Positions 23,637-33,860 of a DNA stretch of 64,000 nucleotides are shown one piece after another. Position numbers and translations under genes: made by a program. Location: assembly GCA_947503435.1 (NCBI GenBank), contig CANNDL010000001.1, positions 83,469 through 147,468 of the forward strand. Reading direction: 5' to 3'. The notes beneath the pieces are model-generated. The model had not been told where the DNA came from and made no database searches. It saw only the letters and a program-made list of their open reading frames with translations. Position 1 is the stretch's first letter; each line of letters begins with the position of its first letter. The DNA comes from an uncultured Kangiella sp. (lineage in GTDB: Bacteria > Pseudomonadota > Gammaproteobacteria > Enterobacterales > Kangiellaceae).

Positions 23637-25742
23637 TTGAATAAATTTAAGCTCGGAAGCTGGAAAGTCGAACCGAACAAAAGCTTGCTGACATCTGATA
23701 ATGGTAAAGAAGTGCGTATTGAGCCGCTCAATATGGCATTGCTTTGCTATTTCGCTAAACACCCAGTCGATCCAATCAGCCGCGAAAAATTAATCGAGGA
23801 TGTGTGGGACAATAAAGTGGTTACCGATCACGCCGTTTATAAGACCATCAATCAATTACGAAAATATTTGGCTAGTGATGGTGACTCGCAAGATTATCTT
23901 AAAACCATACCTAAGAAGGGCTATTCATTAGTTGCTCCACTTGAGGAAATCGTTGAAGCGTCACCAAAAGATGTGATTAATCTTAAGTTTGAGGCCACAT
24001 CTGCTAATGGGTTTACTAAATGGTTCTATAAGCACCCGGTGCTACATACTTTAGGCTTATTAATAGTAGCTGGAATTTTCATATGGAATTTAGGCTTGAA
24101 TACTTGGTGGTATAAAAACCAGCAACCAGTTTATAACAACCTCTCTGTTCTTGCTCAAATTGATGGGGTACTCGATCAAGCCATTCCTTCCCCAAATGAA
24201 AAATTGCTAGCAGTGACCAGTTATGGAGACAGCGATGTTAACAACCGGAAAATATTCTTATTAAATCTAGAAAGCCAAGAAGTATCTCAGCTGACTGATG
24301 GAATACACGATTTCTCTGAAATATCCTGGAGTTCTGAAGGCAACTATTTGGTTGCTTCAAGAAAACCAATTTCATCAATGAATGATGAATATTGCGATTT
24401 AGTATTGCTTGAATTGTCTAAAGACTTTTCTCGGCTAAAGTCGCAAAAAGAAGTGACTTCTTGCTCACCAAGGGGCTCCAGCGCTCAGTTTGATGAAGAG
24501 TCTGAGATGGTATATTACAACTTTGCTCAATCGAACATAGTACCTTCTAGCTTATATAGCTATTCTTTGAGAACTAAAGAAATAGAATTATTGACTAACC
24601 CAGGAAGCGCTGTGTGGGGAGATTGGAGTGTAAGGCTCTCTCCAGACAAAAGTAAACTCTTGTTTATGAGGGTTTATGAAGAAGCAAGTGAGATATTTTT
24701 ATATAATCTGAAGACCAAAAAAGAACAGTTTTTGTTTAAGTTTATTGGCTATCCGGATGAGTTATCTTGGGCTGGTAACAACGAAAAAATTATCTACCAA
24801 CCAAACAATAATCAGGTGGTTCTTTACTCAATAGTTGATAAATTTCATAAAACTATTATCACTAAAGAAGACTCCATTGTTTCTAGTTTTCATTCTCTTG
24901 CTTCCGACAGTATCTATACGGTGAGCAGGTTAAACGATATTGAAATTGTTCAATTCGATATAAAACACCCTCAAAAAGCAAAAGTGGTTAACTCTTCAAA
25001 GGCTATGGAGTTTTCGGGTATATATGCCAATACTAGCGATAACTATGCCTTTGTATCGAAAAGAAGTGGCAGCTGGCAACTTTGGTTACAAACAAATAAG
25101 CAATTAAAAATGCTTACCAATAATGACTCCGATGGCGTTATATTTACTCCAACTTGGTCTTTTGACGACAAGCAAATAGTCTTTAATTTAGGCGGAGCCA
25201 TCTATGCTTATGATTTTGAAAAAGATGAAACACTAGAAATATATGCTGAAGAGGATGTTTATTTGCAAAATCCATTTTGGTCTTCAGATGCTAAAAGTAT
25301 TTATTTTACCAAGCTGGTGGCAGATACAAATCAAATTTTTAAATTGGAGTTGAAAAATAAAACAATTAAACAAATAACCAGTGATGGAGGATATGCTGGT
25401 GCGATTTCATTGAGCAATAATGCATTGTATCTAGTAAAAGATGAGCAATTTGGGTTATGGCGATTGGACTTGTCAAATTTAGAAGAAATTAAGATTAATG
25501 ATATAGCTTCCAATGAAGACCAAGAATTTATCCATACTGTTGAAGATGGATTATATTTTAGTAATTTAAAAGGATATTTAAAGAGTTTGTATTTTGTTGA
25601 TTATGAAACGCATACCACTAGAAAAGTAGTAGACTTTATTAGTAGAGATGTTGCAGGATTTTCAGTGAATCACACGCAAGAAAAGGTCTTGACCACGGTT
25701 ACACATGCTTCAAATGCCAACTTAACTATCTACAGGCCTTAA
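23637..25742 (+). CDS. CadC/ToxR-like membrane transcription regulator: wHTH, TM helix, periplasmic TolB-like beta-propellers
   Basis: IEPLNMALLCYF...ISREKLIEDVW...INQLRKYL...LKTIPKKGY (OmpR/PhoB-type wHTH); TM near residues 135-152; repeated PD40-like motifs (WSSEG, LSPDK, WSFDD, WSSDA). Confidence 0.88.
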   Translation: MNKFKLGSWKVEPNKSLLTSDNGKEVRIEPLNMALLCYFAKHPVDPISREKLIEDVWDNKVVTDHAVYKTINQLRKYLASDGDSQDYLKTIPKKGYSLVAPLEEIVEASPKDVINLKFEATSANGFTKWFYKHPVLHTLGLLIVAGIFIWNLGLNTWWYKNQQPVYNNLSVLAQIDGVLDQAIPSPNEKLLAVTSYGDSDVNNRKIFLLNLESQEVSQLTDGIHDFSEISWSSEGNYLVASRKPISSMNDEYCDLVLLELSKDFSRLKSQKEVTSCSPRGSSAQFDEESEMVYYNFAQSNIVPSSLYSYSLRTKEIELLTNPGSAVWGDWSVRLSPDKSKLLFMRVYEEASEIFLYNLKTKKEQFLFKFIGYPDELSWAGNNEKIIYQPNNNQVVLYSIVDKFHKTIITKEDSIVSSFHSLASDSIYTVSRLNDIEIVQFDIKHPQKAKVVNSSKAMEFSGIYANTSDNYAFVSKRSGSWQLWLQTNKQLKMLTNNDSDGVIFTPTWSFDDKQIVFNLGGAIYAYDFEKDETLEIYAEEDVYLQNPFWSSDAKSIYFTKLVADTNQIFKLELKNKTIKQITSDGGYAGAISLSNNALYLVKDEQFGLWRLDLSNLEEIKINDIASNEDQEFIHTVEDGLYFSNLKGYLKSLYFVDYETHTTRKVVDFISRDVAGFSVNHTQEKVLTTVTHASNANLTIYRP

Positions 25743-27521: not shown

Positions 27522-28325
27522 ATGGATCTTTTTACGCTCGAAAACTTATTTACTTTAATGATGCTTATCGTCTTACAGGCGGTTTTAGGCTTCGATAACT
27601 TACTTTATATCTCTCTAGAATCTAAGCGAGCGCCAGTTGCAGAGCAAAAACGCGTTCGCTGGCTTGGTATTGGAATCGCGGTAGGTTTAAGAATCGTACT
27701 GTTATTCACTTTGATGAAGCTTATCGACTACGTGCAAGGCGATATGTTCAGCCTTGACTGGAAAGGTGTAGTAGAAGGTACCTTCACATTTGAAAGCATA
27801 ATCATCTTATTCGGTGGTGTATTCATCATGTACACGGCAGTAAAAGAAATCTGGCATATGATGGCGTTAGAAGTGGATGGTGGCGTTGAACGTAAACCTC
27901 AATCAGCCGCTAAGATTATTGCGCTTATAGTTATGATGAACCTAGTATTTTCTTTCGACTCAATATTAAGCGCTATGGCTTTAACTGATAACTTCTGGAT
28001 TATGGCAACCGCGATTATTGCCAGTGGCATCGCGATGATTTGGCTGGCTGATACAGTTTCTGAATTCTTAGAGAAAAACCGTATGTTTGAAGTCTTAGGC
28101 CTATTTATTCTATTGATCGTTGGTGTGATGTTGCTAGCCGACGGAGGCCATAAAGCAGGTTTAACTTTCTTTGGCAGTGAAATTACCCCAATGAGCAAAG
28201 CGACTTTCTATTTTGTAATTGCGGTATTGGTATTGAGTGATATCGTCCAATCTAAATATCAAAAAAATCTATTGAAGAAGAAAGAACGATTAGCAAAGCA
28301 AGCTGAAATGGCTAATAAGTCATAA
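27522..28325 (+). CDS. TerC family membrane protein
   Basis: LQAVLGFDNLLYI, MNLVFSFDSILSA, FEVLGLFILLIVGVMLLADG. Confidence 0.9.
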   Translation: MDLFTLENLFTLMMLIVLQAVLGFDNLLYISLESKRAPVAEQKRVRWLGIGIAVGLRIVLLFTLMKLIDYVQGDMFSLDWKGVVEGTFTFESIIILFGGVFIMYTAVKEIWHMMALEVDGGVERKPQSAAKIIALIVMMNLVFSFDSILSAMALTDNFWIMATAIIASGIAMIWLADTVSEFLEKNRMFEVLGLFILLIVGVMLLADGGHKAGLTFFGSEITPMSKATFYFVIAVLVLSDIVQSKYQKNLLKKKERLAKQAEMANKS

Positions 28326-28396: not shown

Positions 28397-28618
28397 ATGT
28401 CAAAATTAAAAGACTTTTTAAAAGAATTAGGTACTAATGCACAACTACTAGAAGATTATAAGCAAGATCCTGATAAAACCATGCAAGACTATGGCTTAAC
28501 TCAGGAAGAAATTGATGCTGTATGCAATCTTGATATGCCAAAAATCAAATCAATAATTGGCGATAAAGAAAGCGATTACTATACCATTGTTATTAATAAG
28601 CATGAGCATGGACTGTAG
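28397..28618 (+). CDS. Split-borosin RiPP precursor (SonA-like borosin-binding domain plus C-terminal core)
   Basis: MSKLKDFLKELGTNAQLLEDYKQDP...GLTQEEIDAV...DM.K.K...GD closely parallels S. oneidensis SonA as recalled; strong RBS AAGGAG; borosin methyltransferase two genes downstream. Confidence 0.88.
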   Translation: MSKLKDFLKELGTNAQLLEDYKQDPDKTMQDYGLTQEEIDAVCNLDMPKIKSIIGDKESDYYTIVINKHEHGL

Positions 28619-28629
28619 TTGTTAGTAAG

Positions 28630-30357
28630 TTGTCTCGTTTACTTTTCCTATTCTTTTTTACTTTTTTTTCCTTATCGATTGAGGCTAATGCTTCAATCGA
28701 TGAGGAATTAGAGTATTTAATAAAAATTAATGGAATAAGTAGTGACTTAGCAAGTAATAAAATTAAGGAACTTGAAAACCGATGGTCCGAATTTGAGACC
28801 GATGATCAAAGGGCAGAGTTTTACTTGCAAAAAGGGTACTTCCACTTACTAAGAAGTGATTTTTCTGAAGCACGAGCCGTACTTGAAAAAGCCTTAGCAC
28901 TTTCCTCGATATCGGCAGATAATAAGGTTGTTGCTTATAATTTTTTGTCACAAATTGCAAAGGGCGAGAATGATTATTTAGAATCGTTTGAGTACCTATT
29001 TAAAGCACTAGAAATTATCCCAGAATTAAAAGAGCCTAAGCAAAAGATAGCTTTTTATCACAGCTCCTCTAATACACTAATACAGATGGGGTTCTGGAAT
29101 GAGGCACTTACTTACTCCAAAATTGCTTTGGATATATCAGAAGAATCGAATATAGAAATTAGCAAGTGCTATTTACAGGCTCAAATTTACGAAATTCATA
29201 ATAAAATGGGAATTGCTCAGGGCTTGGCTAAAAATATTGAGAAGGTCATTAATGAGTGTGAAGAGCACGACATATCGTTGCTATTAGCTAATTTATACCG
29301 AAGTTTAGGAAATAACCATCTTTATACTGGGGATCTAGGGTCTGCTTATACAGCATTAGAGCTGTCCAGAGATTATTTAAAAGAAAACCCTTATCAGCCA
29401 GAAAGAATGGAATTGTTTTATAGCTTAGCTTCATTGTATTTCCAGCAAGGTGATATTCAGAAGTCTGAGTATTATATAAAAATGATCTTAGATAGTGAGA
29501 AGAATGACTGGAGTTACCTTGAATATGAAATCTATGAATTATTATCTAAATTAGAGGAAAAAAAGGGTTCTGCTGCAAGTGCCAATAAATATTTGCTTGA
29601 TGCTTATGAAGCTAAAATTGAACGGTTCGAAGAGAGAAACAGACTTGGCTTGATATATCAGAAAGTTAAATATTCAAATTTAGAAAGTGAAGCTCAGATT
29701 AAGATCTTGGACCAGGAAAATGAACTTTTAAAGCTAAATTCCGAAGTCCAAGCTCAATCAAAAAGAATTTATCAGCTGTTTTCGGTAATTACCGCGTTAT
29801 TAGTGGCACTAATTACACTTATGTTTTTGAGAACAAAAAAACTAAAAGAGCGTTATCAAGAGCTTTCTAGAAAAGATGGATTAACGGGCGTTTTATCGAG
29901 GCGTTACGCTCTTAAGATTGCAAAGGACGTGCATAGTAAAAGCATTGCCAATGATCATAAGTATAGTTTAGTGGTTTTTGACTTAGATTATTTCAAATCA
30001 ATTAATGATAGGTATGGACACGCCATTGGTGATTGGGTTTTAAAGCAAGTTACCGAAAAAGTTTCGTCGCAGATTCGCAAAGTTGATGCGTTTGGCCGTT
30101 TAGGCGGTGAGGAATTTATTTTGGTTCTACCCGATACTGAATCACAAGAAGCAAAAATGTTAGCCGAGCGTTGTTTAGAAGCAATTAAGACTATTCAGCA
30201 TGATGTATTTGATGATCATTATGTTGTAACTGCTAGTTTTGGCGTTGCGACTTATCCAGAGTTTAAAGATTTAGAAGCTCTAATTCAAAATGCGGATGAT
30301 GCTATGTATAAAGCCAAGCAAATGGGACGCAATCAGATCTTTAGTTTTGCTCAATAA
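28630..30357 (+). CDS. Membrane diguanylate cyclase: signal/TM, periplasmic TPR-like helical domain, TM, GGDEF
   Basis: Hydrophobic N-terminus, TPR-like repeats, TM near residues 379-399, DLDYFKSINDRYGHAIGD, RKVD I-site and GGEEF active site. Confidence 0.92.
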   Translation: MSRLLFLFFFTFFSLSIEANASIDEELEYLIKINGISSDLASNKIKELENRWSEFETDDQRAEFYLQKGYFHLLRSDFSEARAVLEKALALSSISADNKVVAYNFLSQIAKGENDYLESFEYLFKALEIIPELKEPKQKIAFYHSSSNTLIQMGFWNEALTYSKIALDISEESNIEISKCYLQAQIYEIHNKMGIAQGLAKNIEKVINECEEHDISLLLANLYRSLGNNHLYTGDLGSAYTALELSRDYLKENPYQPERMELFYSLASLYFQQGDIQKSEYYIKMILDSEKNDWSYLEYEIYELLSKLEEKKGSAASANKYLLDAYEAKIERFEERNRLGLIYQKVKYSNLESEAQIKILDQENELLKLNSEVQAQSKRIYQLFSVITALLVALITLMFLRTKKLKERYQELSRKDGLTGVLSRRYALKIAKDVHSKSIANDHKYSLVVFDLDYFKSINDRYGHAIGDWVLKQVTEKVSSQIRKVDAFGRLGGEEFILVLPDTESQEAKMLAERCLEAIKTIQHDVFDDHYVVTASFGVATYPEFKDLEALIQNADDAMYKAKQMGRNQIFSFAQ

Positions 30358-30385: not shown

Positions 30386-31189
30386 ATGAATAAAAAAGGT
30401 TCTTTAACCTGTATCGGTACAGGTATCACTCTAGCAGGACAAATCACTAAAATTTCTGAAAGCTATTTGCAAACTGCAGATATTGTTTATGGAATCTTAC
30501 CTGACTTTATGTCTGAAGAATGGATTAAAAGTTTAAATCCTAACTATCAAAGTTTACAGCCGCTTTATGGAGAAGGTAAATCCCGACGACAAACCTATCG
30601 CGAAATGACTGACATGGTTTGTGATGCTGTAAGAGATGGGAAGCGAGTTGTGTTAGCGCTTTATGGTCACCCCGGAATATTTGCCTGCGTTGGGTATTAC
30701 GCGATTGAAGATTTAAAGAAAGAGGGATACATAGCCAAGATGTTGCCAGGAGTTTCTGCTGACGCTTGTCTTTATGCTGATTTAGGCTTTGATCCTGGAA
30801 ACTATGGATGTCAAAACTATGAAGCCAGTCAGTTCCTATTTAGAGGTTTAACTCCAAACGTAGGATCATATTTAATTTTATGGCAGATAGCATTAGCCGG
30901 AGAGCACACACTTAAAACTTTTAAAACTTCAAAAGGAAATTTGCAAGCAACAGTGCGTATCTTAAATAAATATTATCCACTAGATCACGAAGTGATTATT
31001 TATGAAGCTCCTTTTCTACCCATTCAAGAACCAAGAATTGATAGGTTTCCATTGAAAGACTTACCCGAAATTAAGTTGAAGTCTATTTCAACTATGGTGA
31101 TACCGCCATTAACGCCATTGGAACTTAGCCAAGAAGCGCTAGAAGAATTTGGGTTGAAGATTACAGACTTTGGGCAAGAGTCTAAATAA
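30386..31189 (+). CDS. Borosin peptide backbone alpha-N-methyltransferase (SonM-like, tetrapyrrole methylase fold)
   Basis: GSLTCIGTGI, Y61/R67/Y71 (LY...SRRQTY), LYGHPG (Y93), PGVSADACLYADLGFDPG, YEASQF, LWQI, YPLDHEVIIYEA. Confidence 0.92.
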   Translation: MNKKGSLTCIGTGITLAGQITKISESYLQTADIVYGILPDFMSEEWIKSLNPNYQSLQPLYGEGKSRRQTYREMTDMVCDAVRDGKRVVLALYGHPGIFACVGYYAIEDLKKEGYIAKMLPGVSADACLYADLGFDPGNYGCQNYEASQFLFRGLTPNVGSYLILWQIALAGEHTLKTFKTSKGNLQATVRILNKYYPLDHEVIIYEAPFLPIQEPRIDRFPLKDLPEIKLKSISTMVIPPLTPLELSQEALEEFGLKITDFGQESK

Positions 31190-31250: not shown

Positions 31251-33860
31251 TTATACTTTCTTCAACTCTAAGGCTGCTTTAACCAAGTCTTTAACGTACT
31301 GGTTATGAGCTTTAGTCGCTTCTGATTGCCAGAAAGCTGTATCAGCATCGGCATCAATGTTCTTCAGCTGTTGACGAGCTAATGCAACACTCTGATTGCT
31401 ATAGCCAGCTTTGCCATTTGACTGAACGATACGTGCTAAACCTTTGATGTACTCAATCTGTAAATTTTGACGCATAGAGTTCACATCGCCAGAATCACCT
31501 TTAAAGATAGCGTTAGTTAAATCACTCATCACTTCTGATAATTCGTATTCATTGCCATACATTGCTGAGTCAATGATACGTTTTTGAACTACAGGGTGAA
31601 GTAATTGAACCAGCACACCACGCTGAGTGTTTAAAGCCCAGTCATGAACTTTTGGATCTTCAGTAAAGCTGAAGTGATTGAAGCCACGACGTTGCAATTG
31701 TAGCTTGCTTAAAATGTCTTTATTAAAATCAAAAGCATCTTCTGCAAAGATATATTTAGCTAACGCATTCATGGCTTCTTTCTGCTTGGTTTTCTCAACT
31801 GGCTGGAATGGCTCAGTTGCGCCAGGTTGTCCAGCAAATCCACGATCTAAATAAACACCACCAATGTAGCGTGAGATAGTACGAGCGTGGCCACCGTATT
31901 GGCGATATAGAGCACCGAAACCATTCACAAGGCCTTGGTAAGAATCGCCTTCTTTAACCAGACGGCCGACTAATTGATCTTCAACGTTACGGATATGATC
32001 CATTTGACCAACTGCGAAACCAACTGCGTCCGAAGTCATGTCACCAACGTTAATGCGTGGGTCAATGGCTTTACCAGGAGAGCGCATATCATCCGCATCG
32101 TTACCAAACGCTAATTCAGGTTCAGTAGAGCGTGCTAATAAAGCAGTCATTCTGTCTTTTTCAGCGTCGGCATTTCCTAGAGAAGGTTTATAACCAAACT
32201 CAATTGCCCATAAATCGTATGGACCGGGAGTGGTGGTATAGAAATTACCTTGCTTTCCATCAGTAGCAAAGTTAATTGCCGGATAGTCCATCACTGATCC
32301 TGTCAAACCGACTGAAGCAGTTTTATTTTTATCACTGACCGAATCTAAGTCATGCAATTGGCTTGATTTCATGTTGTGGTTCAGACCAAGGGTGTGACCA
32401 ACTTCGTGTAATACTAAGAAGTGGATGAAGTCGTATAAGAAGTCTGAAACTTCTTCAGGGCTATCGACCATCGCTTCCATCATCATGCGGCCATCCATCG
32501 CGTCTTGGTACATAGCCTTATGGATGTTGGTGTCATACTCAAGTGATTCTTCCATCGCTTGTTCCATGCTGATAGCTTCTGTTGCCATCAACTCTTCAGC
32601 AAAAGCGATACGATTAAATACTGAGTATTCCAACATGATATCAGCGCCAAGCAACTGACCAGTGCGCGGGTTAGCAAAACTTGGGCCATAACCACCGAAT
32701 GGAGGGCGTGGAGATGAAGTCCAACGTAAAACGTTATAACGAATATCGCCCGCATCCCATTCAGCATCATCAGGCTGAACTTTTACTTGGATGGCATTTT
32801 TAAAGCCGGCTTTTTCAAAAGCTTTATTCCACTCAAGAGTCGCGTGTTTTACCGTTTCGCGAATATGCTCAGGAGTCGTATTTTCAATCCACCATACGAT
32901 TGGTTCAACCGGCTCTGAAAGCTCAGCTGTTGGGTCTTTTTTCTCTAAGTGCCAGCGACGAATCACATCACGATAAGGCGTGTGATCAGCCACCGCAGTC
33001 ATATCGTGCACTTGATTCATAAAGTAGCCTACGCGCGGATCGTCATAACGAGGCATGTAATTATTTTCTGGGACTTCAATCATTGAGTGACGAACACTGA
33101 CTTCGATTGAACGAGGATCGGTTACCGCGAATAATCCTGGGGTTACCGTTCTTGCTTGAGGAACGATTGGGGCAGGGTTGTCGTAAACATACTCTACTTG
33201 GAAGTCTGTGTTTTCTGGGTAATTATCGATTTCAACGTATTTAGTTTTGCTTTTGCTTAATTTGCCTAAACCTAAACGCGTACCCGGCTTAGTGCCTGGT
33301 CGTGGCGATGGTTTAATTTGCAGTAAAGACTCCGATAAGAACAGTTTATCGGCATCAATTAATATATCACCAGTATCTTTATCTTCGGCAATGATCGGTA
33401 AACTACTAATTACCGGACTATTGATGTTGGCATCTTTAGCTTTAGAAACGGCATTTTCTGGATCAAAGTAAAAACTGGTATTTTCAGCTTTGAATTCGAT
33501 GTTTTTGTAATGACGGTCAATGGAGTAAATTCGTGCGCCGGCATAAGCACCACGGAATGCAGCTACACCTACTAAGCCATCACTCACTTGCGCGAAGTGT
33601 AAAAACTCTTTACCAAGTTGGTCTTTTTTAATGACCATTTTTAATTTGCCAGTTTTAGGGTCTTGGTATAAATCGAATAAACCTTCGATTTTGGTCATGT
33701 CCTTAACAGTTTCTTGGATAGTTTTAGCTGCTTTTTGCTCTTTTTTAGCCTTGGCAGGAGCAGCTGCTTCAGCCACAGGGGCGGTAAACGCTACTGTTGA
33801 GCCTAATAAAGCAATTGCAAGCGCTTGGCTTACTTTATTGATTTTCATGTGATTCCCCAC
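31251..33860 (-). CDS. Secreted zinc-dependent metalloprotease (metzincin; DUF5117/DUF4953-type)
   Basis: Signal peptide, HEVGHTLGLNHN (HExxHxxGxxH), Met-turn GSVMDYP, DPRVGYF; the start may be the ATG at 33848. Confidence 0.9.
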   Translation of the reverse strand: MGNHMKINKVSQALAIALLGSTVAFTAPVAEAAAPAKAKKEQKAAKTIQETVKDMTKIEGLFDLYQDPKTGKLKMVIKKDQLGKEFLHFAQVSDGLVGVAAFRGAYAGARIYSIDRHYKNIEFKAENTSFYFDPENAVSKAKDANINSPVISSLPIIAEDKDTGDILIDADKLFLSESLLQIKPSPRPGTKPGTRLGLGKLSKSKTKYVEIDNYPENTDFQVEYVYDNPAPIVPQARTVTPGLFAVTDPRSIEVSVRHSMIEVPENNYMPRYDDPRVGYFMNQVHDMTAVADHTPYRDVIRRWHLEKKDPTAELSEPVEPIVWWIENTTPEHIRETVKHATLEWNKAFEKAGFKNAIQVKVQPDDAEWDAGDIRYNVLRWTSSPRPPFGGYGPSFANPRTGQLLGADIMLEYSVFNRIAFAEELMATEAISMEQAMEESLEYDTNIHKAMYQDAMDGRMMMEAMVDSPEEVSDFLYDFIHFLVLHEVGHTLGLNHNMKSSQLHDLDSVSDKNKTASVGLTGSVMDYPAINFATDGKQGNFYTTTPGPYDLWAIEFGYKPSLGNADAEKDRMTALLARSTEPELAFGNDADDMRSPGKAIDPRINVGDMTSDAVGFAVGQMDHIRNVEDQLVGRLVKEGDSYQGLVNGFGALYRQYGGHARTISRYIGGVYLDRGFAGQPGATEPFQPVEKTKQKEAMNALAKYIFAEDAFDFNKDILSKLQLQRRGFNHFSFTEDPKVHDWALNTQRGVLVQLLHPVVQKRIIDSAMYGNEYELSEVMSDLTNAIFKGDSGDVNSMRQNLQIEYIKGLARIVQSNGKAGYSNQSVALARQQLKNIDADADTAFWQSEATKAHNQYVKDLVKAALELKKV

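What the first reader, a model, noticed from the sequence alone, without database searches (positions are those of the whole stretch)
28630..30357. Receptor-like diguanylate cyclase nested between the RiPP precursor and its enzyme: possible N-methyl-peptide to c-di-GMP signalling circuit
Seen: signal/TM, roughly 350 aa of periplasmic TPR-like helices, a TM helix and a GGDEF domain with an intact GGEEF A-site and RxxD I-site (RKVD). It sits inside the RiPP operon, 11 bp after the precursor stop. Established: TPR domains are the peptide-binding modules of RRNPP quorum-sensing receptors in Firmicutes, and c-di-GMP controls aggregation and biofilm formation. Inference: the methylated, protease-resistant core could be the ligand of this periplasmic TPR, giving a Gram-negative peptide-pheromone system wired directly to c-di-GMP. 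The ligand-receptor link is a hypothesis and not shown by the sequence.
Basis: inference. Interest (0 to 1): 0.8.

Follow-up and report, generated by a model that had tools for sequence, protein, structure and literature searches.

The report
Borosin-operon periplasmic TPR diguanylate cyclase
This gene encodes a membrane enzyme that makes the bacterial signal c-di-GMP and carries an outward-facing peptide-binding-type sensor; it sits inside an operon for a backbone-methylated peptide. That pairing is already published but unexplained, and whether the peptide is what the sensor detects remains plausible but unproven.

Summary
Window 28630-30357 encodes a 575-aa protein: Sec signal peptide, about 290 aa of TPR hairpins, a long stalk helix, one TM helix, and a GGDEF domain with GGEEF and a correctly spaced RKVD I-site. 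It lies 11 bp after a SonA-like precursor and 28 bp before a SonM-like N-methyltransferase, in a Kangiella genome.

The arrangement is not new. GGDEF is the commonest accessory Pfam in split-borosin clusters (56%). The Shewanella oneidensis son cluster has the same protein (SO1480), and TPR-TM-GGDEF-methyltransferase fusions are described.

New here:
- The periplasmic domain belongs to a family with two invariant cysteines. In 61 related genomes, 82 of 88 strong members lie within 6 kb of a borosin methyltransferase, including all 39 cyclases.
- The module also occurs as secreted TPR-only paralogs. More distant, Cys-less TPR sensors occur as hybrid histidine kinases followed by REC-GGDEF.
- Its fold resembles Rap, NprR and LGN peptide-binding TPRs.

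Against the ligand idea:
- No exporter is encoded.
- Shewanella peptides were found only in cell pellets.
- Orphan TPR-only genes exist.
- I found no specific core-TPR co-evolution.

Verdict: a new member of a known kind. The peptide-to-TPR-to-c-di-GMP link is the best single hypothesis, at about 0.4.

The parts
28397..28618 (+). SonA-type borosin precursor, 73 aa. The leader / borosin-binding domain is aa 1-55 (ending ...KSIIG). The predicted core is aa 56-73, DKESDYYTIVINKHEHGL (nt 28562-28615).
   Evidence: phmmer against PDB SonA 7LTC_B gives E 7e-16, and there is a weak Pfam LigA hit. The core boundary is inferred from the G55|D56 start of shewanellamide A (PMC10549244). Ortholog cores are listed.
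28630..30357 (+). Periplasmic-TPR / TM / GGDEF diguanylate cyclase, 575 aa (the finding).
28630..28692 (+). Sec-type signal peptide, aa 1-21, with the predicted cut after ANA.
   Evidence: Read directly from the sequence: n-region, h-region and an AxA c-region. It has low pLDDT in the model. Equivalent N-termini are present in all 36 aligned family members.
28696..29562 (+). TPR-like superhelix, aa 23-311 (15 helices), carrying the two family-invariant cysteines C180 (nt 29167-29169) and C210 (nt 29257-29259).
   Evidence: AF2 model, pLDDT 92. Foldseek hits to designed consensus TPR, LGN, Rap and NprR. Invariant columns in alignment A1. The Cys pair is present in every borosin-linked member and absent from distant unlinked TPR-GGDEFs.
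29572..29829 (+). Continuous stalk helix (aa 315-382) running into the single TM helix (aa 383-400, nt 29776-29829).
   Evidence: H315-399; hydrophobic run found; coiled-coil-like ILDQENELLKL segment conserved in the cyclase members.
29872..30336 (+). Cytoplasmic GGDEF domain, aa 415-569. A-site GGEEF at nt 30103-30117; I-site RKVD at nt 30076-30087.
   Evidence: Pfam PF00990, E 7.6e-42; PDB diguanylate cyclases, E 1e-30; motif positions.
30386..31189 (+). SonM-type borosin alpha-N-methyltransferase, 267 aa, with YGHP (nt 30662-30673) and DACLYAD (nt 30761-30781) motifs.
   Evidence: phmmer against SonM 7LTC_A gives E 2e-92 over the full length; Pfam TP_methylase; motifs located.
27522..28325 (+). 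TerC-family membrane protein, 72 bp upstream. It is a neighbour rather than a demonstrated part of the system.
   Evidence: Pfam TerC, E 9e-39. It is adjacent only in the three closest species (L031, L036, L037) and not in the other six orthologous loci.

Best explanation
The gene is the dedicated sensor diguanylate cyclase of a SonM/SonA-type (type IV) split-borosin operon in a Kangiella genome.

Shown or directly read from sequence:
- A cleavable signal peptide places a roughly 320-aa TPR superhelix in the periplasm.
- A long stalk helix continues through one TM helix into a cytoplasmic GGDEF domain with an intact active site (GGEEF) and a product-inhibition site (RxxD).
- The TPR domain belongs to a discrete family marked by two invariant cysteines on neighbouring antiparallel helices. 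This family is almost always encoded next to a borosin N-methyltransferase.

Inferred:
- The two cysteines form a periplasmic disulfide.
- A ligand binding in the TPR groove changes the register or dimer geometry of the stalk helices, and so controls GGDEF dimerisation and c-di-GMP synthesis.
- The ligand is the operon's own processed, N-methylated peptide (core about DKESDYYTIVINKHEHGL) or a fragment of it.
- Because a peptide of about 1.7-2 kDa should not cross porins freely, and the Shewanella products stay cell-associated, the loop is more likely autocrine and periplasm-confined, or triggered by lysis of kin, than a freely diffusing pheromone.
For: Architecture and catalytic motifs. Across fetched family cyclases, 38 of 39 have GGEEF and 35 of 39 have RxxD at the canonical spacing.

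Linkage: in 61 genomes, 82 of 88 strong family hits, and all 39 of cyclase length, lie within 6 kb of a methyltransferase hit. About 0.4 would be expected by chance. Loci picked only by their methyltransferase in Shewanella, Arenimonas, Marinicella, Iodidimonas and Sedimenticola carry the same Cys-pair TPR cyclase.

Behaviour as a sensory input module with interchangeable outputs:
- TM-GGDEF.
- No output: secreted TPR-only paralogs in Kangiella type-3 clusters.
- Hybrid histidine kinase followed by REC-GGDEF in Algicola and an Alteromonadaceae MAG.
- The published GGDEF-methyltransferase fusion (bioRxiv 10.1101/2021.12.24.474128).

The TPR-only form cannot be explained by c-di-GMP acting on the methyltransferase, so it points to the TPR itself as the partner of the peptide system.

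TPR phylogeny follows cluster and precursor type, with three clades at 99-100% support. The fold is nearest to peptide-binding TPRs: LGN, Rap-Phr and NprR-NprX. dN/dS of about 0.05 shows the fast-evolving TPR is under purifying selection.
Against: - No binding or signalling data exist for any member. I found no functional study of SO1480.
- The precursor has no signal peptide, and no transporter is conserved in any of the cluster types.
- The genome and most of the genus lack a C39/PCAT exporter.
- Shewanellamide A was absent from supernatants and found only in pellet extracts (PMC10549244). The SamA1 fragment was reported only from cell extracts (bioRxiv 10.1101/2024.01.09.574750).
- Intact orphan TPR-only genes persist without an adjacent precursor or methyltransferase in this genome (G000:C4:68105-70307) and in three sister species.
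- Type-3 clusters have 2-4 TPR paralogs for one precursor.
- TPR dN is about 2x that of GGDEF whether cores are identical or different, so I see no core-specific co-evolution.
- The net charge of the TPR domains is not complementary to the acidic or basic peptide tails.
- The Foldseek similarity is generic for 7-8-repeat TPR superhelices; a designed consensus TPR is the top hit.
Confidence: 0.4

Rival explanations
1. The signal flows the other way. The periplasmic TPR senses an unrelated envelope or environmental cue, or a protein partner. The cytoplasmic GGDEF domain then controls the borosin pathway, either through c-di-GMP or through direct contact with the dimeric methyltransferase. On this reading the peptide is an intracellular effector of a c-di-GMP-regulated programme and not the ligand.
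For: Natural TPR-TM-GGDEF-methyltransferase fusions (type X) imply physical proximity of the GGDEF and methyltransferase domains in the cytoplasm (bioRxiv 10.1101/2021.12.24.474128). Peptide products are cell-associated (PMC10549244). No exporter is encoded. TPR divergence does not track core divergence. Orphan TPR-only genes exist without a cis-encoded peptide.
Against: It does not explain why secreted TPR-only proteins with no cytoplasmic output are the conserved partners of precursor and methyltransferase in type-3 clusters. It also does not explain why the TPR clade, rather than just any cyclase, follows the precursor type. No c-di-GMP-binding motif or domain was detected in the methyltransferase (Pfam and NCBIfam).
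Confidence: 0.3
2. The TPR proteins are periplasmic binders of the peptide, but their role is not primarily signalling. They would act as carrier, sequestration or self-protection proteins, or as a maturation scaffold. The cyclase version would merely report peptide load.
For: Type-3 clusters carry multiple secreted TPR-only paralogs (2-4 per cluster) held in conserved orthologous lineages. The module evolves fast but under purifying selection. This resembles immunity or binding proteins encoded next to other RiPPs (general knowledge).
Against: Shewanellamide A showed no antibiotic activity against six test organisms, including the producer (PMC10549244). The dominant architecture in the wider family is the cyclase: most of the top 150 representatives are 565-640 aa. 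This reading has the same export problem as the main hypothesis.
Confidence: 0.12
3. Co-expression only. The cyclase and the borosin genes share an operon because both serve the same lifestyle switch, for example aerobic surface growth, without any molecular interaction between peptide and sensor.
For: sonA is strongly ArcA-repressed and aerobically expressed (cited in PMC10549244). c-di-GMP enzymes are frequent passengers in many operons (general knowledge).
Against: A dedicated Cys-pair TPR family is 93% linked to the methyltransferase across genera and classes. Gene orders vary, outputs are swapped and gene fusions occur. That pattern is hard to reconcile with mere co-regulation.
Confidence: 0.1

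Closest known systems
SO1480, the GGDEF protein of the Shewanella oneidensis MR-1 son cluster (SonM SO1478, SonA SO1479, SO1480, cation efflux SO1481)
   Same: It has the same three core genes. The methyltransferase matches SonM at E 2e-92 and the precursor matches SonA at E 7e-16. Shewanella orthologs have the same signal peptide, Cys-pair TPR, TM and GGDEF architecture. Their function is equally unknown.
   Different: The gene order here is precursor-cyclase-methyltransferase, whereas in Shewanella it is methyltransferase-precursor-cyclase. A TerC protein, not a CPA2/Kef-like cation efflux gene, is next door. The core is DYYTIVINKHEHGL rather than SYLVISHGNGD. The TPR domain is only distantly similar; the search with window aa 1-410 scored the one son-ordered (methyltransferase-precursor-cyclase) locus in the relatives sample, G041, at 23% identity.
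Type X borosins (TPR-TM-GGDEF fused to the N-methyltransferase; Imani et al., bioRxiv 10.1101/2021.12.24.474128)
   Same: They have a periplasmic TPR, one TM helix, a GGDEF domain and a borosin methyltransferase in one functional unit.
   Different: Here the cyclase and the methyltransferase are separate genes 28 bp apart.
RRNPP peptide receptors (Rap, NprR, PlcR, PrgX, AimR) of Firmicutes and their phages
   Same: They have a TPR superhelix of similar size. Foldseek gives TM-scores of 0.55-0.60 and E-values of about 1e-6 to Rap and NprR peptide complexes. They are encoded next to their small peptide gene.
   Different: RRNPP receptors are cytoplasmic and are fused to HTH or phosphatase outputs. 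They sense unmodified Sec-exported peptides that are re-imported by Opp. Here the TPR is periplasmic, disulfide-bearing and membrane-tethered to a GGDEF domain, and the peptide has no export signal. No sequence-family membership was found.
Lantibiotic autoinduction sensors (NisK/NisR, SpaK/SpaR)
   Same: A RiPP cluster encodes its own extracytoplasmic sensor. The Alteromonadaceae variant, with a TPR hybrid kinase and REC-GGDEF next to the methyltransferase, is formally the same layout.
   Different: The output here is c-di-GMP rather than transcription. The sensor domain is a TPR. Peptide export is unproven.
Periplasmic-partner-controlled c-di-GMP enzymes (YfiR-YfiN/TpbB; NspS-MbaA)
   Same: A soluble periplasmic protein or ligand controls a membrane c-di-GMP enzyme through its periplasmic domain. 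This is a possible model for how the TPR-only paralogs relate to the TPR cyclases.
   Different: The sensor folds are unrelated (PAS-like or CHASE8, and a periplasmic binding protein). No RiPP is involved. This comparison rests on general knowledge and was not tested here.

Membership tests
GGDEF diguanylate cyclase (catalytically competent) | GGDEF domain above the Pfam gathering score | tested here: met
   PF00990, 143.3 bits against 23.8; TIGR00254, 155 bits against 37.4.
GGDEF diguanylate cyclase (catalytically competent) | Intact GG[DE]EF A-site plus metal and phosphate-binding motifs (DxLTG, KxxND, K/R near the C-terminus) | tested here: met
   GGEEF at 492-496, DGLTG at 416-420, KSIND at 456-460, AKQMGRN at about 562-568. 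Ser replaces the common Asn in the NRR motif, as in 17 of 39 family members.
GGDEF diguanylate cyclase (catalytically competent) | RxxD I-site five residues upstream of GGDEF | tested here: met
   RKVD at 483-486; 35 of 39 family members also have it.
GGDEF diguanylate cyclase (catalytically competent) | c-di-GMP synthesis demonstrated | not testable with these tools
   This needs an enzyme assay or an in vivo reporter.
Type IV split borosin cluster (SonM/SonA type) | Stand-alone alpha-N-methyltransferase homologous to SonM, with YGHP and DxCLxAD motifs | tested here: met
   E 2e-92 to 7LTC_A over aa 5-263; YGHP at aa 93 and DACLYAD at aa 126.
Type IV split borosin cluster (SonM/SonA type) | Separate precursor with an N-terminal borosin-binding domain and a C-terminal core | tested here: met
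   E 7e-16 to SonA 7LTC_B over aa 1-69.
Type IV split borosin cluster (SonM/SonA type) | Backbone N-methylation of the core | not testable with these tools
   This needs co-expression and LC-MS/MS.
Borosin-associated periplasmic TPR sensor (SO1480-like; Cys-pair family defined here) | Signal peptide, about 320-aa TPR, stalk and TM, with two invariant cysteines (C180, C210 in window numbering) | tested here: met
   Alignment A1 of 36 members has C180 and C210 as its only invariant columns. The pair is present in all 58 family proteins of the 40 Kangiellaceae-sample loci and in the family cyclases and TPR-only proteins of 14 of 20 loci from other taxa. It is absent from distant TPR-GGDEFs in genomes without a methyltransferase.
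Borosin-associated periplasmic TPR sensor (SO1480-like; Cys-pair family defined here) | Encoded within a few kb of a borosin methyltransferase | tested here: met
   The gap is 28 bp here. In 61 genomes, 82 of 88 strong family hits lie within 6 kb.
Borosin-associated periplasmic TPR sensor (SO1480-like; Cys-pair family defined here) | Disulfide between the two cysteines; periplasmic location | not testable with these tools
   The cysteines sit at the start of H176-193 and the end of H200-213, which are adjacent antiparallel helices.
RRNPP quorum-sensing receptors | TPR superhelix that binds a short peptide in its groove | tested here: inconclusive
   Fold similarity to Rap and NprR complexes (TM 0.55-0.60) is no better than to designed consensus TPR or LGN. 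Binding was not tested.
RRNPP quorum-sensing receptors | Cytoplasmic receptor with HTH or phosphatase output; peptide exported by Sec and re-imported by Opp | tested here: not met
   The TPR lies between a signal peptide and a TM helix, so it is periplasmic. The output is GGDEF. The precursor has no signal peptide. It therefore may work like an RRNPP receptor but is not a member of that family.

The most novel reading that the evidence does not exclude
Bacterial split borosins are not antibiotics but self-made signalling peptides. On this reading the backbone-methylated (or methylation-licensed) peptide reaches the periplasm and is read by a dedicated, disulfide-stabilised TPR sensor family. 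The output is c-di-GMP, produced either directly (TPR-TM-GGDEF), through a phosphorelay (TPR hybrid kinase plus REC-GGDEF), or through soluble TPR-only co-receptors. This would be a widespread RiPP-autoinducer-to-second-messenger circuit in Gram-negative bacteria, and it would give bacterial borosins their missing biological role.
Probability: 0.35. Interest if true: 0.8.

Novelty: new member of a known kind. Interest (0 to 1): 0.45.

Why it matters
The authors who discovered bacterial borosins state that their biological role is unknown, and the one isolated product has no antibiotic activity. The most conserved accessory gene is this sensor cyclase. If the peptide is its ligand, borosins would be a peptide-signal system in Gram-negative bacteria wired to c-di-GMP (biofilm versus motility). 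Such systems are rare, and this one would be experimentally tractable in S. oneidensis MR-1.

The comparative results here sharpen the test. They define the sensor family by its Cys pair. They show that a periplasmic TPR sensor, rather than the GGDEF output, is the constant partner of these clusters. They also point to natural variants that can be used as controls: TPR-only proteins, the hybrid kinase plus REC-GGDEF layout, and orphan TPR-only genes. If the link is refuted, the cyclase more likely gates peptide production, which is also a new regulatory logic for RiPPs.

Tried and rejected
1. A word-based homologue search with the TPR region found only 3 proteins. The domain diverges too fast for that method, so I switched to profile searches of whole genomes.
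2. The search for related loci with the 36-sequence TPR alignment failed because no stretch was conserved enough.
3. A class-level sample of 400 genomes gave mostly generic partial TPR hits. Only one strong member (G237) appeared, and it is methyltransferase-linked. The weaker TPR-GGDEFs, in genomes without a methyltransferase, lack the Cys pair. They were therefore not counted as family members.
4. PCAT or double-glycine export. The precursors end their leaders in an xLxG motif and shewanellamide A starts right after SG, so I looked for C39-peptidase ABC exporters. There is none in this genome, and only 4 of the 16 Kangiella genomes searched have one. Rejected as the general route.
5. TerC (here) or the cation efflux gene (Shewanella) as a conserved exporter. 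Neither is conserved across orthologous loci. Rejected.
6. Co-evolution. Pairwise identities at first suggested that TPR divergence tracks core divergence. The dN ratios of TPR to GGDEF, however, are 1.25-2.5 regardless of core identity. With only about 5 independent lineages, no claim is made.
7. Positive selection on the TPR. Whole-domain dN/dS is about 0.05. Rejected at gene-wide level; site models were not run.
8. Charge complementarity between TPR domains and acidic (type-2) or basic (type-3) tails. No pattern.
9. RNA-seq support for co-transcription. No RNA run holds the locus.
10. Surface mapping of variable positions on the model. Coordinates are not exposed to the script box.
11. A broad literature search for an explicit borosin signalling proposal returned nothing relevant.
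Full report
WHAT IS THERE

The window holds a compact + strand gene set:
- TerC-family protein, 27522-28325.
- 73-aa precursor, 28397-28618.
- 575-aa TPR-GGDEF protein, 28630-30357, TTG start.
- 267-aa TP_methylase-family protein, 30386-31189.
- A convergent secreted Met-zincin on the minus strand, 31251-33860.

The precursor stop codon and the cyclase start are 11 bp apart. The cyclase stop and the methyltransferase start are 28 bp apart. No terminator-like site lies on the + strand within the three genes.

The methyltransferase aligns over its whole length with SonM of Shewanella oneidensis (PDB 7LTC_A, E 2e-92) and has the YGHP and DxCLxAD motifs. The precursor aligns with SonA (7LTC_B, E 7e-16). 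This is a type IV split-borosin cluster. Record titles of the nearest relatives place the genome in Kangiella.

CHECKING THE OBSERVATION

- The N-terminus, MSR-LLFLFFFTFFSLSI-EANA|S, is a Sec-type signal peptide.
- Pfam finds TPR_12 above its threshold and GGDEF at E 7.6e-42.
- A single hydrophobic span at aa 383-400 is followed by a Lys/Arg-rich segment.
- RKVD (483-486) lies exactly five residues before GGEEF (492-496).
- DGLTG, KSIND and the C-terminal AKQMGRN motif are intact.

An AlphaFold2 model of aa 1-400, built on a 36-sequence alignment, is confident (pLDDT 92.2, pTM 0.80). It shows 15 short helices from 23 to 311, then one unbroken helix from 315 to 399 that forms the stalk and the TM segment. 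The GGDEF domain needs cytoplasmic GTP, and the TPR region lies between a signal peptide and the TM helix, so the TPR region must be periplasmic.

WHAT IS ALREADY KNOWN

The association is published.
- Imani et al. (bioRxiv 10.1101/2021.12.24.474128) report GGDEF as the most frequent Pfam domain in split-borosin clusters (56%). They describe these proteins as inner-membrane proteins with a periplasmic TPR domain, and they define type X borosins, in which TPR-TM-GGDEF is fused to the methyltransferase.
- Crone et al. (PMC10549244) list the son cluster as SonM SO1478, SonA SO1479, GGDEF protein SO1480 and a cation efflux pump SO1481. They state that the native role remains elusive.
- They isolated shewanellamide A, a 16-mer with two N-methylations. 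It was found only in cell pellets, not in supernatants, and it had no antibiotic activity.
- Lee et al. (bioRxiv 10.1101/2024.01.09.574750) showed for the sam cluster that methylation licenses cleavage by SamP, and they detected the acidic C-terminal fragment in cell extracts.

I found no functional study of SO1480. None of these texts states explicitly that the peptide is the TPR ligand. Earlier notes of this scan on similar loci reached the same verdict: a known but unexplained arrangement.

NEW COMPARATIVE EVIDENCE

(a) A defined sensor family. I aligned 23 cyclase N-terminal regions and 13 TPR-only proteins from Kangiella and relatives. Exactly two columns are invariant, C180 and C210 in window numbering. 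In the model they sit at the start of helix 176-193 and at the end of helix 200-213, which are neighbouring antiparallel helices. A periplasmic disulfide is therefore plausible, but this is an inference. The pair is present in every borosin-linked member examined. It is absent from more distant TPR-GGDEF proteins found in genomes that have no borosin methyltransferase. A profile search of 1.84 billion representative proteins finds 1,553 clusters at E <= 1e-30. Most of the top 150 are 565-640 aa, and about 20 are 347-395 aa.

(b) Linkage. I combined the methyltransferase hits with the profile hits in the genome and 60 relatives.
- 82 of 88 strong family hits (E <= 1e-40) start within 6 kb of a methyltransferase hit.
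- All 39 hits of cyclase length are linked.
- Conversely, 67 of 83 methyltransferase hits have a family TPR within 6 kb.
- The 12-kb windows around 83 methyltransferase genes cover roughly 0.5% of about 200 Mb, so chance predicts about 0.4 linked hits.

Loci selected only by their methyltransferase in other taxa give the same picture. Shewanella (3 loci), Arenimonas, Pleionea, Marinicella, Iodidimonas (2 loci) and Sedimenticola all carry a Cys-pair TPR cyclase. The three Iodidimonas and Sedimenticola loci have the same nested order precursor-cyclase-methyltransferase as the window. The nested order is therefore not unique either.

(c) Interchangeable outputs. Kangiella has three cluster types.
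- Type 1 (this window) is son-like.
- Type 2 is sam-like. It runs GNAT, methyltransferase, a precursor with a PAEDDD acidic tail, and a cyclase. This genome has one at G000:C3, fetched as L066.
- Type 3 lies between gcvP and mutH. It has a precursor, a methyltransferase and 2-4 secreted TPR-only paralogs of about 355 aa. These have signal peptides and the Cys pair, and they end at the QRKLAFD motif just before the point where the cyclases continue into the stalk.

In Algicola, an Alteromonadaceae MAG, Glaciecola and Paraglaciecola the methyltransferase is followed by a different protein: a signal-peptide TPR hybrid histidine kinase (HisKA, HATPase, two REC domains; an Hpt domain was also detected in the Glaciecola protein). 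It lacks the Cys pair. In two of these loci a REC-GGDEF response regulator follows. So the logic 'periplasmic TPR to c-di-GMP' is built at least twice with different parts, and the TPR module can also stand alone. That is the behaviour of a sensory input domain. The TPR phylogeny resolves types 1, 2 and 3 as three clades with 99-100% support, so each sensor lineage has stayed with its own kind of precursor.

(d) Fold. Foldseek against the PDB returns designed consensus TPRs first. Next come the LGN/Pins peptide-binding TPR and the RRNPP receptors Rap (4GYO, 4I1A, phage Rap-Phr complexes) and NprR-NprX. TM-scores are 0.5-0.6 and E-values 1e-8 to 1e-5. This is compatible with peptide binding in the groove, but it is generic for TPR superhelices of this length.

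EVIDENCE AGAINST, OR NOT SUPPORTING, THE LIGAND HYPOTHESIS

- The precursor has no signal peptide.
- No transporter is conserved in any cluster type. TerC is adjacent only in the three closest species, and the Shewanella cation-efflux gene is not conserved within that genus.
- The genome and most of the genus have no C39/PCAT exporter, although the leaders end in an xLxG motif.
- Published products are cell-associated. A peptide of about 1.8 kDa exported only across the inner membrane would also stay with the pellet, so this does not refute periplasmic sensing. It does argue against a freely diffusing pheromone.
- This genome keeps two intact orphan TPR-only genes between gcvP and mutH, with no precursor or methyltransferase (G000:C4:68105-70307). 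Three sister species keep one each.
- Type-3 clusters have several TPR paralogs for one precursor.
- The TPR domain is the fastest-evolving module. Between the window and its nearest ortholog, identity is 38% for the TPR, 67% for TM plus GGDEF, 79% for the methyltransferase, 67% for the leader and 56% for the core.
- dN/dS is about 0.05. The TPR to GGDEF dN ratio is 1.25-2.5 whether the cores are identical or different. With about five independent lineages there is no specific co-evolution signal.
- Net charge of the TPR domains is not complementary to the peptide tails.

MECHANISM AND ODDS

The protein is almost certainly an active, product-inhibited diguanylate cyclase gated by its periplasmic TPR domain through the stalk and TM helix. 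Of the fetched family cyclases, 38 of 39 have GGEEF and 35 of 39 have RxxD. It is almost certainly coupled functionally to the borosin pathway, given the linkage, the fusions and the swapped outputs.

Which way the coupling runs is not shown. The TPR-only clusters cannot be explained by c-di-GMP acting on the methyltransferase, and the only constant co-encoded partners of a periplasmic TPR sensor are the precursor and its methyltransferase. I therefore rank the explanations as follows:
- The operon's own peptide is the TPR ligand, acting autocrine in the periplasm or after lysis of kin: about 0.4.
- The reverse direction, in which the sensor controls the pathway: about 0.3.
- A non-signalling binder role: about 0.12.
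- Mere co-regulation: about 0.1.

COMPARISON AND VERDICT

This is a new member of the known SO1480-type accessory cyclases of split-borosin clusters. If the hypothesis holds, it would work like an RRNPP receptor or a lantibiotic autoinduction sensor, but it is not a member of either family: it is periplasmic, has a GGDEF output, and shows no sequence-family match.

The finding itself is ordinary for this class. They make the open question of borosin function more directly testable without answering it.

Noticed in passing
G000:C3 about 301.5-306 kb (locus L066: 3496-6770): This genome has a second, sam-type borosin cluster. It runs PF13302 GNAT, a 245-aa methyltransferase, an 83-aa precursor (core NICSFIVPAEDDDEDDD... 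with a long acidic tail) and a second Cys-pair TPR-TM-GGDEF cyclase of 579 aa. It is flanked by an M17 (PepB-like) aminopeptidase and a class A PBP. The genome therefore has two complete peptide, enzyme and sensor sets.
   Followed up: partly
G000:C4:68105-70307 (locus L075: 8106-10332): Two intact secreted TPR-only genes (354 and 368 aa, Cys pair present) lie between gcvP and mutH. Other Kangiella species have precursor, methyltransferase and TPR-only genes at this site, but here neither the precursor nor the methyltransferase is present. Orphans also occur in G005, G014 and G016. This is unexplained under a strict cis ligand-receptor model.
   Followed up: partly
L051-L062, L067-L069 (Kangiella type-3 loci): Type-3 clusters carry 2-4 tandem TPR-only paralogs that fall into conserved orthologous sub-lineages. 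Their precursors have hydrophobic cores with Lys-rich tails, for example KAVCINIVILMKDDK and ELVITGIIHLVKK. I did not find this TPR-only form described in the papers I read.
   Followed up: partly
L089, L092, L095, L096: Alteromonadaceae-type borosin loci replace the cyclase with a signal-peptide TPR hybrid histidine kinase of 1072-1195 aa. In two loci a REC-GGDEF response regulator follows. This is a two-component version of the same TPR-to-c-di-GMP wiring.
   Followed up: partly
window 29875-29904: The GGDEF domain has DGLTGVLSRR, with Ser where most cyclases have the guanine-contacting Asn (NRR). The family splits about evenly: 17 Ser, 18 Asn, 2 Thr. The effect on substrate or product specificity was not examined.
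   Followed up: no
window 31251-33860 (-): A secreted 869-aa Met-zincin (DUF4953 plus DUF5117) lies convergent to the methyltransferase. The same neighbour is present in the nearest species (L031, L036) but not in the other Kangiella clade. It could be a candidate extracytoplasmic protease, or it could simply be a neighbour.
   Followed up: no
window 23637-25742 (+): A 701-aa protein has an N-terminal OmpR/CadC-type winged-helix DNA-binding domain, a TM segment and a C-terminal beta-propeller-like (PD40/TolB-like) region. This is the layout of a ToxR/CadC-like membrane-bound one-component regulator.
   Followed up: no
precursors: All BBD-type precursors end their leader with a conserved hydrophobic-x-G motif (for example KSIIG|D, KELTGG|G, KTLSG|D). 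Shewanellamide A begins right after this Gly. The motif resembles double-glycine leaders, yet most of these genomes have no C39 transporter.
   Followed up: partly
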